DNA of 46,525 nt from Bdellovibrionales bacterium (lineage in GTDB: Bacteria > Bdellovibrionota > Bdellovibrionia > Bdellovibrionales > JAMPXM01). Positions 34,511 through 34,850 of the stretch are shown piece after piece (position 1 is the first letter of the stretch; each line of letters opens with the position of its first letter). Where the stretch lies: the NCBI GenBank assembly GCA_043746165.1, contig JAYTRM010000191.1, forward strand, positions 1 to 46,525, read 5' to 3'. The position numbers and the translations under genes were made by a program. The notes under the pieces are model-generated. The model searched no databases, was not told the origin of the DNA, and saw only the letters and a program-made list of their open reading frames with translations.

Positions 34511-34539
34511 TTGCTTGGCCCTTAAAATCGTTTTAAACT
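34511..34539 (+). promoter_or_regulatory. sigma70-like promoter of the histone gene
   Basis: TTGCTT-N17-TAAACT; strong TAAGGAG SD downstream. Confidence 0.55.
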
Positions 34540-34583
34540 GCAATGGTCGTGAAGTTATCTAGACCAAGTAAGGAGATATCGAT

Positions 34584-34778
34584 ATGGCAGAAGTTCTTGT
34601 CGTAACCAGCAAAGTTAAGAAATACATCAAAGAAAAAGGCGACTGCAACACGTCTGCGGAAACCATCGATGTCTTGAGTAAGGCCGTCGAAGCTCTCTGC
34701 GAAAAAGGAATGGAAAGTGCTAAAGCCGATGGGCGCAAAACGGTCATGGCCCGCGACATCGTCATCGATCACCTGTAG
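34584..34778 (+). CDS. bacterial histone-fold protein, orthologue of Bdellovibrio Bd0055 (HBb)
   Basis: 64 aa; MAEVLVVTSKVKK.IKEKG..NTSAETIDVLSKA and histone L2/alpha3 signature A.ADGRKTVMARD; own promoter, SD and terminator. Confidence 0.93.
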   Translation: MAEVLVVTSKVKKYIKEKGDCNTSAETIDVLSKAVEALCEKGMESAKADGRKTVMARDIVIDHL

Positions 34779-34820
34779 TCGCTTCGAAGTTCTTAAGCAT
34801 CAAAATGATATCAAGATTGA

Positions 34821-34850
34821 GCCCGCTCTCACTGAGGCGGGCCTTTTTTT
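34821..34850 (+). terminator. intrinsic terminator of the histone gene, overlapping the ligA stop codon
   Basis: GCCCGC(T)CTC-ACT-GAGGCGGGC followed by CTTTTTTT. Confidence 0.8.

What the first reader, a model, noticed from the sequence alone, without database searches (positions are those of the whole stretch)
34511..34850. Bacterial histone (Bd0055/HBb orthologue) as a stand-alone transcription unit
Seen: a 64-aa ORF with the histone-fold RKTVxxxD signature, a sigma70-like promoter, a TAAGGAG SD and an intrinsic terminator. Established: B. bacteriovorus Bd0055 is an abundant histone-fold nucleoid protein that does not form nucleosomes. From memory the sequence is nearly identical, with several substitutions. 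This copy has two Cys (C21, C39) and acidic residues at 20 and 40. A known system, but rare, easily missed by annotation and diagnostic for the taxon.
Basis: partly seen in the sequence, partly recalled or inferred. Interest (0 to 1): 0.7.

Follow-up and report, generated by a model that had tools for sequence, protein, structure and literature searches.

The report
Bdellovibrio-type bacterial histone gene (HBb orthologue)
This is an ordinary copy of the small histone-like DNA-packaging protein already described in the predatory bacterium Bdellovibrio, found here in an uncultured relative; its second cysteine is typical of the group and not special to this copy.

Summary
Window 34584..34778 (+) encodes a 64-aa protein that matches the solved B. 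bacteriovorus histone Bd0055/HBb end to end. The match has E 9e-31 and 57 of 64 identical residues. A confident AlphaFold2 model (pLDDT 92.8) superposes on HBb structures at TM 0.87-0.92.

All ten published DNA-contact residues are kept, as are the RKTV motif, the R51-D58 clamp and the residues whose HBb state goes with dimers rather than tetramers. The locus is syntenic with that of B. bacteriovorus: a metallophosphoesterase gene lies upstream and ligA converges downstream. Substitutions fall mostly on third codon positions.

The Shine-Dalgarno site and the terminator are confirmed. The proposed promoter matches the E. coli consensus at only 7 of 12 positions, which is no better than chance. 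It does align with a conserved TTGTCA-N17/18-TAGACT element in the nearest relatives. No RNA data exist.

The cysteine claim needs correcting. C39 is shared with HBb. C21 is present in 149 of 188 orthologue sequences, so the model protein's M21 is the minority state. In the wider family position 21 is hydrophobic (mostly M, L or F), which favours a packing role over a redox role.

This is a new member of a known kind, of low interest.

The parts
34511..34539 (+). Candidate promoter: TTGCTT (34511-34516), 17-nt spacer, TAAACT (34534-34539). It would give a 5' UTR of about 38 nt.
   Evidence: Sequence. It matches the E. coli consensus at 7 of 12 positions and was not called by the scan. It scores 8 of 12 against the relatives' motif, which equals the shuffle mode. 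It aligns under a TTGTnn-N17/18-TAnACT element in 5 of 5 relatives. It is inferred, not shown.
34569..34575 (+). Shine-Dalgarno TAAGGAG, 8 nt upstream of the ATG
   Evidence: Read directly. GGAG or GGAGG cores stand at the same place in most of the relatives' upstream sequences printed; I did not count them.
34584..34778 (+). Histone gene, 64 codons plus TAG stop: orthologue of B. bacteriovorus Bd0055/HBb (the 'bacterial dimer', alpha3-truncated histone class)
   Evidence: ORF. PDB match to 8fvx/8cmp at E 9e-31, 57 of 64 identical. AF2 pLDDT 92.8 with helices 8-19 and 25-48 and a 3-residue helical turn at 56-58. Foldseek TM 0.87-0.92 to 9ezz, 8fvx, 9f0e and 8cmp. Substitutions by codon position 624/355/3255.
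34821..34850 (+). Intrinsic terminator: GCCCGC...GCGGGC hairpin, then C and seven T. It overlaps the last codons and the stop of the convergent ligA.
   Evidence: The ligA ORF ends at 34829.
33038..34498 (+). Upstream neighbour: 486-aa calcineurin-like metallophosphoesterase. Co-directional, with an 85-nt gap and no terminator between it and the histone gene. Preceded by tatA/B-like and tatC genes.
   Evidence: A homologue stands upstream on the same strand in 46 of 94 loci, including B. bacteriovorus strains.
34829..36994 (-). Downstream neighbour: NAD-dependent DNA ligase LigA, convergent
   Evidence: Pfam domains. ligA is convergent downstream of the histone gene in 80 of 94 loci.

Best explanation
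The gene encodes the positional orthologue of the Bdellovibrio bacteriovorus histone Bd0055/HBb in an uncultured member of the Bdellovibrionales.

By homology, the 64-aa protein folds into a truncated histone fold with a short alpha2 and a one-turn alpha3. It forms a homodimer and binds DNA without sequence preference at the minor groove. Binding uses the paired L1-L2 loops (N22, S24, K52, T53, R57) and the start of alpha1 (T8, S9, K10, K12, K16).

It lacks the residues that let archaeal histones form tetramers, so it does not wrap DNA into nucleosomes. Instead it bends DNA or coats it; the published work on HBb disagrees on which. It most likely serves as an abundant nucleoid-associated protein.

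The gene probably has its own promoter (inferred) and its own intrinsic terminator. C21 and C39 most likely sit at hydrophobic packing positions.

Shown here: identity, fold, conserved residues, synteny, purifying selection, and terminator conservation. Inferred from HBb: dimerisation, DNA binding, abundance.
For: Sequence and fold
- The PDB sequence search gives 8fvx_A and 8cmp_A (Bd0055/HBb) at E 9e-31, residues 1-64 of 64, with 57 identical.
- The AF2 model has mean pLDDT 92.8. Its five best Foldseek hits are all HBb entries, with TM 0.87-0.92 and rmsd 0.7-1.3 A.

Functional residues (against papers)
- The ten DNA-contact residues listed for HBb are N22, R57, S9, T53, T8, S24, K10, K12, K52 and K16 (PMC11317129, passages). 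All ten are present.
- D49, R51 and D58 are present.
- S45, A48 and I61 are unchanged. Mutating these in Bd0055 to F, H and L gave a wrapping-like FRET signal (PMC10627809, section 9).
- Of the named dimer-core residues V11, L31, I35, L38 and I59, only I35 changes, conservatively, to V.

Synteny
- 94 unique loci were examined out of 110 located; 16 duplicates were dropped.
- ligA converges downstream in 80.
- The metallophosphoesterase gene is upstream on the same strand in 46, including B. bacteriovorus strains s4, Bd5 and YOA24 (L072, L097, L087).

Distribution and selection
- One orthologue plus one distant paralogue are found in the window's own genome.
- 39 of 41 genomes of the order have an orthologue-level match.
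- Across 93 comparisons, a median of 29 codons differ synonymously against 8 non-synonymously.

Transcription signals
- Terminator-like sites occur in 61 of 93 loci, against 5.9 expected.

The cysteine positions
- In 185 domains of 150 family representatives, position 21 is M 104, L 37, F 17, C 15, I 4, Y 3, V 2.
- In the same set, position 39 is C 118, A 20, L 17, I 14.
Against: - No experiment or RNA data exist for this organism, and no RNA holder was listed.
- The promoter motif is no better than chance on its own, so co-transcription with the upstream gene is not excluded.
- The protein falls just under the curated thresholds of Pfam PF00808 (20.7 against 21.4) and well under that of NCBIfam archaea_histone (28.3 against 50).
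- Its net charge (K+R minus D+E) is 0, against +2 for the B. bacteriovorus proteins. Only 14 of 188 pooled orthologue sequences are that acidic, so DNA affinity could differ from HBb.
- The DNA-binding mode of HBb itself is disputed. One paper reports straight-DNA filaments (PMC10627809) and the other reports bending (PMC11317129).
- Burial of residues 21 and 39 was inferred from substitution patterns. It was not measured on coordinates.
Confidence: 0.9

Rival explanations
1. Redox-responsive variant. C21 sits in loop L1 next to N22, the residue with most DNA contacts in HBb. It may act as a reactive thiol (oxidation, S-thiolation or an inter-dimer disulfide) that modulates DNA binding or compaction. 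The M21 model protein could not show this property.
For: - C21 is kept in 149 of 188 pooled orthologue sequences, and C39 in 187 of 188.
- C21 and C39 occur together in 101 of 117 close homologues.
- C21 neighbours N22 (contact ranking from PMC11317129).
- Neither HBb paper discusses cysteines of the protein. A term search found only a proteomics setting in PMC10627809 and nothing in PMC11317129. A library search for 'bacterial histone', 'cysteine' and 'Bdellovibrio' found 7 papers; I saw only titles and abstract starts of the 6 listed, and none is about this.
Against: - Position 21 is filled by M, L, F, I, Y or V in 167 of 185 domains of the wider family, and by M, Y or F in 39 of 188 orthologues. 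That is the pattern of a hydrophobic packing site, not of a functional thiol.
- From general histone-fold geometry, C21 lies before the N-terminus of alpha2 and C39 past its middle. The C21-C39, C39-C39' and C21-C21' pairs within a dimer should therefore be too far apart for a disulfide. This is my inference and was not measured.
- The cytoplasm is reducing.
Confidence: 0.07
2. The gene is not a stand-alone unit. It is the last gene of a co-directional operon (tatA/B-like, tatC, metallophosphoesterase, histone) and is transcribed mainly by read-through.
For: - Four co-directional ORFs precede it with short gaps.
- The gap to the histone gene is only 85 nt, and no terminator-like site lies in it.
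- The candidate promoter is sub-threshold.
Against: - A promoter-like element aligns at the same place in 5 of 5 relatives, and it is a perfect TTGTCA-N17/18-TAGACT in 5 loci.
- In 46 of 94 loci no homologue of this upstream gene was found on the held flank, and in 2 it lies on the opposite strand, yet the histone gene is still present. Some of these flanks are short.
- HBb is reported to be very highly expressed (PMC11390915, passage), which fits a dedicated promoter.
Confidence: 0.2
3. It is a histone-fold transcription-factor subunit (NF-Y/CBF-like) or another protein-protein adaptor, and not a general chromatin protein.
For: - The best Pfam model is CBFD_NFYB_HMF.
- One NCBI record names a close homologue 'NFYB/HAP3 family transcription factor subunit'.
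Against: - That Pfam family also covers archaeal histones.
- The protein is 89% identical to HBb, whose nucleoid localisation, abundance and non-specific DNA binding were shown experimentally (PMC10627809, sections 8-9 and passages; PMC11317129).
Confidence: 0.02

Closest known systems
Bd0055 / HBb of Bdellovibrio bacteriovorus HD100 (PDB 8FVX, 8FW7, 8CMP, 9EZZ, 9F0E)
   Same: - Same length (64 aa), with 57 of 64 residues identical.
- Same predicted fold.
- All listed DNA-contact residues, the RD clamp and D49 are kept, as are S45, A48 and I61.
- Same gene neighbourhood.
   Different: - Seven substitutions: L14Y, Q20D, M21C, I35V, Q37A, L40E, V43M.
- A second cysteine, C21.
- Two extra acidic residues, giving net charge 0 instead of +2.
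- The upstream region is not alignable with that of B. bacteriovorus by eye.
Bd3044-type 'ZZ histone' (PMC11390915)
   Same: It has a C-terminal HBb-like histone fold. The window's own genome carries one (L002 1138..1695, 43% identical to the query).
   Different: The ZZ type is about 185 aa, with an N-terminal Cys/His-rich zinc-finger-like domain and a linker. The window gene is a bare singlet.
Leptospira histone HLp (PDB 9QT0-2) and archaeal HTkC (9F2C)
   Same: Alpha3-truncated singlet histone folds. Foldseek TM 0.76-0.79; sequence E 2.7e-05 and 9.2e-08.
   Different: Only 37-41% identical. According to PMC11390915 (passages), face-to-face histones, found among others in Spirochaetota, form predicted tetramers, whereas the HBb group gives only dimers.
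Nucleosomal archaeal histones HMfA/HMfB (PDB 1HTA, 1B67, 1A7W)
   Same: Histone fold, RKT L2 motif, RD clamp.
   Different: - The match is weak (E 0.6).
- HBb-type proteins have alpha2 one turn shorter and alpha3 of one turn.
- They have no sprocket arginine (N22 here) and no tetramerisation histidine (A48 here) (PMC10627809).
- They do not wrap DNA.

Membership tests
HBb/Bd0055 'bacterial dimer' histones (alpha3-truncated family) | Full-length sequence similarity to Bd0055/HBb. The category was defined by sequence clustering (PMC11390915). | tested here: met
   E 9e-31, residues 1-64 of 64, 89% identity
HBb/Bd0055 'bacterial dimer' histones (alpha3-truncated family) | Histone fold with a shortened alpha2 and an alpha3 of one turn (3-4 residues) | tested here: met
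   The AF2 model has helices 8-19 and 25-48 and a 3-residue helix at 56-58, pLDDT 92.8. TM 0.87-0.92 to HBb structures. This is a prediction, not a solved structure.
HBb/Bd0055 'bacterial dimer' histones (alpha3-truncated family) | RKTxxxD motif with the RD clamp (R51-D58), the S9-K10 motif and alpha1 lysines | tested here: met
   RKTVMARD at 51-58, D49, S9-K10, and K12, K13, K16. R51, T53 and D58 are invariant in the 45-sequence alignment.
HBb/Bd0055 'bacterial dimer' histones (alpha3-truncated family) | No tetramerisation residues and no sprocket arginine | tested here: met
   S45, A48 and I61 as in Bd0055, and N22 at the sprocket position (against PMC10627809)
HBb/Bd0055 'bacterial dimer' histones (alpha3-truncated family) | Positional orthology with bd0055 | tested here: met
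   The metallophosphoesterase gene is upstream and ligA is convergent downstream, as in B. bacteriovorus strains (L072, L087, L097).
HBb/Bd0055 'bacterial dimer' histones (alpha3-truncated family) | Homodimer, non-specific DNA binding without wrapping, high abundance in the nucleoid | not testable with these tools
   Inferred from HBb experiments only. I did not run complex prediction, because 89% identity to a solved dimer would make a pass uninformative.
Pfam PF00808 CBFD_NFYB_HMF | Score at or above the gathering cut-off (21.4 bits) | tested here: not met
   20.7 bits, E 5e-4. 34 of 45 aligned family members match at E <= 0.01. The curated model is marginal for this whole clade.
Nucleosomal (HMf-type) histones | Long alpha2 and alpha3, a tetramer interface (His49-type residue) and a sprocket arginine | tested here: not met
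   A48, N22 and a one-turn alpha3. NCBIfam archaea_histone scores 28.3 against a cut-off of 50.

The most novel reading that the evidence does not exclude
In most Bdellovibrionales, but not in the model strain B. bacteriovorus HD100, the chromatin histone carries a conserved cysteine (C21) directly beside its main DNA-contact residue. This cysteine may make nucleoid compaction responsive to oxidative or thiol stress during the predatory cycle. The extra acidic residues of this copy (net charge 0) would further tune DNA affinity or dimer-dimer stacking.
Probability: 0.07. Interest if true: 0.55.

Novelty: new member of a known kind. Interest (0 to 1): 0.2.

Why it matters
It adds little. Bd0055 homologues were already reported in 67% of Bdellovibrionota genomes (PMC10627809, passage).

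Two small points are useful.
1. The gene falls under the curated Pfam and NCBIfam thresholds, so automatic annotation tends to call it hypothetical.
2. The model protein HBb is atypical at position 21. It has M where 149 of 188 orthologues have C. It is also more basic than this copy. Anyone extrapolating HBb biochemistry to the clade, or choosing a representative for redox or affinity tests, should know this.

Tried and rejected
- RNA evidence: the look-up of sequencing runs listed no RNA holder. There were two DNA holders that may be the source sample and one that held next to none of the words. I did not lay reads, because contigs of DNA runs cannot show a transcript start.
- Rfam scan of 34200-35000 at E <= 1: three sub-threshold sRNA matches (22.3, 22.3 and 17.1 bits against gathering scores of 50, 115 and 49.5). 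All lie on the terminator hairpin and were rejected as chance.
- FliA (sigma-28) attack-phase promoter, TTAAG-N16-CCGATA (PMC3627812, passages). A TTAAG stands at 34495-34499, but 16 nt downstream the sequence reads TGGCCC. There is no such promoter (read).
- A perfect TATAAT at 34421-34426 inside the upstream gene has no -35 partner and was not called by the scan.
- The TAGACC at 34560-34565 resembles the relatives' -10 box. It lies only about 4 nt before the Shine-Dalgarno site and has no -35 partner, so I rejected it.
- Covariation of position 21 with positions 14, 20, 37, 40 and 43: no exclusive pairing. The sequences are related, so no test was made.
- The third hit in the window's own genome (C161, E 0.7) was rejected as noise.
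- Antisense ORFs of 79 and 68 aa across the gene were rejected, because substitutions follow the + frame's third positions.
- The 80-nt fold around the terminator is not more stable than shuffles (z -0.82). The terminator call rests on the local hairpin plus T-run and on its conservation.
- Distances between the cysteines could not be measured, because no tool returns coordinates.

Full report
**Observation**

Window 34584..34778 (+) is a 64-codon ORF with an ATG start. Its reading frame opens only four codons upstream.

- The protein carries RKTVMARD at residues 51-58, Cys at 21 and 39, Asp at 20 and Glu at 40.
- TAAGGAG stands at 34569-34575, 8 nt before the ATG.
- The scan finds a terminator-like hairpin at 34821-34842 (7 pairs, 6 G-C), followed by C and seven T up to 34850. 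The hairpin alone folds at -15.4 kcal/mol.

**Identity**

- A sequence search of the PDB returns the B. bacteriovorus histone (8fvx_A, 8cmp_A) at E 9e-31 over residues 1-64 of 64. Of these, 57 are identical.
- The seven differences relative to HBb are L14Y, Q20D, M21C, I35V, Q37A, L40E and V43M.
- An AlphaFold2 model built on a 45-sequence alignment has mean pLDDT 92.8. It has helices at 8-19 and 25-48 and a three-residue helical turn at 56-58.
- Its five best Foldseek matches are all HBb entries, with TM 0.87-0.92 and rmsd 0.7-1.3 A. These are followed by archaeal HTkC and Leptospira HLp (TM 0.76-0.79) and then by eukaryotic core histones.
- The curated family models are marginal. PF00808 scores 20.7 bits against a cut-off of 21.4. 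NCBIfam archaea_histone scores 28.3 bits against 50.
- This fits the 'hypothetical protein' names that several NCBI records give close homologues. It also fits the fact that only 9 of the 120 listed homologues carry a precomputed Pfam domain.

**Functional residues**

- Hu et al. (PMC11317129; passages read) list the main DNA contacts of HBb as N22, R57, S9, T53, T8, S24, K10, K12, K52 and K16. They describe the R51-D58 clamp, augmented by D49, and a dimer core of V11, L31, I35, L38 and I59.
- All of these are present here, apart from the conservative I35V.
- Hocher et al. (PMC10627809; sections 8 and 9 and further passages read) show that Bd0055 lacks the sprocket arginine and the tetramerisation histidine. 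[quoted passage not shown]
- The window protein keeps N22, A48, S45 and I61.
- By homology it should therefore be a dimer that binds the minor groove through L1-L2 and the start of alpha1 and does not form nucleosomes.
- Whether such dimers coat straight DNA (PMC10627809) or bend it like HU/IHF (PMC11317129) is disputed for HBb itself and cannot be settled here.

**The gene is real and orthologous**

- The window's own genome (3.3 Mb in 359 contigs) has one orthologue, one distant paralogue, and one chance hit at E 0.7.
- All 41 genomes sampled from the family and order, the window's own included, have a match. In 39 of them it is at orthologue level (E <= 5.3e-26). G009 (57% complete) and G036 (99% complete) show only a paralogue-level match.
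- A scan of species-representative genomes kept 80 loci. Most are Bdellovibrionales, Pseudobdellovibrionaceae or Bdellovibrio assemblies. B. bacteriovorus strains are 89% identical.
- I located the gene in 110 loci and kept 94 after dropping 16 duplicates.
- ligA converges on the histone gene in 80 of the 94. A homologue of the 486-aa metallophosphoesterase gene is upstream on the same strand in 46, on the opposite strand in 2, and not found in 46. Some of these loci are short.
- B. bacteriovorus strains share both neighbours, so the orthology is positional.
- Against the window gene, 93 orthologues differ at a median of 29 codons synonymously and 8 non-synonymously. Differences by codon position are 624, 355 and 3255.

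**Transcription signals**

- The terminator is conserved as a feature. 61 of 93 loci with at least 100 nt downstream have a hairpin plus T-run, against 5.9 expected from shuffles.
- In the window, the hairpin overlaps the last codons and the stop of ligA.
- The promoter is weaker. TTGCTT-N17-TAAACT matches the E. coli consensus at 7 of 12 positions, and the scan called nothing on the + strand.
- The upstream regions of the nearest relatives carry TTGTCA-N17/18-TAGACT. A match of 10 or more of 12 occurs in 15 of 94 loci, against 1.2 expected. This motif was read off the same sequences, so the count is partly circular. The window scores 8 of 12, which is the shuffle mode.
One relative has the same TAAACT.
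- I therefore regard an own promoter as likely but not shown.
- No terminator separates the gene from the co-directional tat-metallophosphoesterase genes, so read-through is possible.
- No FliA-type promoter is present (motif from PMC3627812; sequence).

**The cysteines and the acidic residues**

- C39 is also present in HBb, so only C21 is new relative to the model protein.
- C21 is the rule, not the exception.
  - 25 of 29 relatives' orthologues have it (Y in 3, M in 1), and C39 is in 28 of 29.
  - Among 117 unique close homologues, C21 is in 101. These came from 119 of the 120 listed proteins; one was dropped because no 64-residue stretch of it shared 40 or more residues with the query.
  - Among 188 pooled unique sequences, C21 is in 149 (M 34, Y 3, F 2), and C39 is in 187.
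- In the wider family (185 domains in the 150 best 50%-identity cluster representatives), position 21 is M 104, L 37, F 17, C 15, I 4, Y 3, V 2. Position 39 is C 118, A 20, L 17, I 14.
- Both positions therefore behave as hydrophobic packing sites.
- By general histone-fold geometry the two thiols of a dimer should be far apart. This is my inference and was not measured.
- A redox switch is thus unlikely. It is not excluded, since C21 adjoins N22.
- D20 and E40 are common states. Together they bring this copy to net charge 0, against +2 for B. bacteriovorus. Only 14 of the 188 pooled sequences are that acidic.
- Neither HBb paper discusses the protein's cysteines. A library search for 'bacterial histone', 'cysteine' and 'Bdellovibrio' found 7 papers; I saw only titles and abstract starts of the 6 listed, and none is about this.
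- Supplementary Fig. 3 of PMC10627809, which I could not see, may show the same conservation.

**Verdict**

This is a correctly recognised member of a known and recently described family. The family is wide: 1171 90%-identity clusters at E <= 0.001, and 588 50%-identity clusters at E <= 0.001, of which 73 are at E <= 1e-10. A specialist would not be surprised. Interest is low.

Noticed in passing
L002 1138..1695 (+) = G000:C168, outside the window: The same genome encodes a second histone-fold protein of 185 aa. It has an N-terminal Cys/His-rich stretch (C17, C20, C33, C38, C48, C52, H56, H62), a low-complexity linker and a C-terminal HBb-like fold (43% identical to the query, E 2e-13). It fits the Bd3044 'ZZ histone' type of PMC11390915. 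It has no Pfam hit at E <= 0.001.
   Followed up: partly
window 34829..36994 (-) and 34584..34778 (+); loci L004-L112: The convergent histone-ligA arrangement is kept in 80 of 94 unique loci across the order. In the window, the histone terminator hairpin lies over the last codons and the stop of ligA. No functional link was tested.
   Followed up: partly
upstream of the histone gene in L004-L009, L011, L019, L027, L028, L030, L031, L040, L051, L091: There is a recurrent promoter-like element, TTGTCA-N17/18-TAGACT, 36-122 nt before the ATG. The -10 box is TAGACT, not TATAAT. B. bacteriovorus-type loci instead share TTGTCA followed about 12 nt later by TATGCAAAC (seen by eye, not analysed).
   Followed up: partly
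P0121 (133 aa) and other two-stretch hits: Several family representatives hold two HBb-like folds in one chain (pseudodimeric doublets). The best, P0121, is 60% identical and has the top E-value of the whole search (7.8e-31).
   Followed up: no
window 31818..34498 (+): A tatA/B-like gene, tatC and a 486-aa calcineurin-like metallophosphoesterase form a tight co-directional block ending 85 nt before the histone gene. I judged the 486-aa protein to have a hydrophobic, probably membrane-spanning segment from its translation; this was not tested.
   Followed up: no
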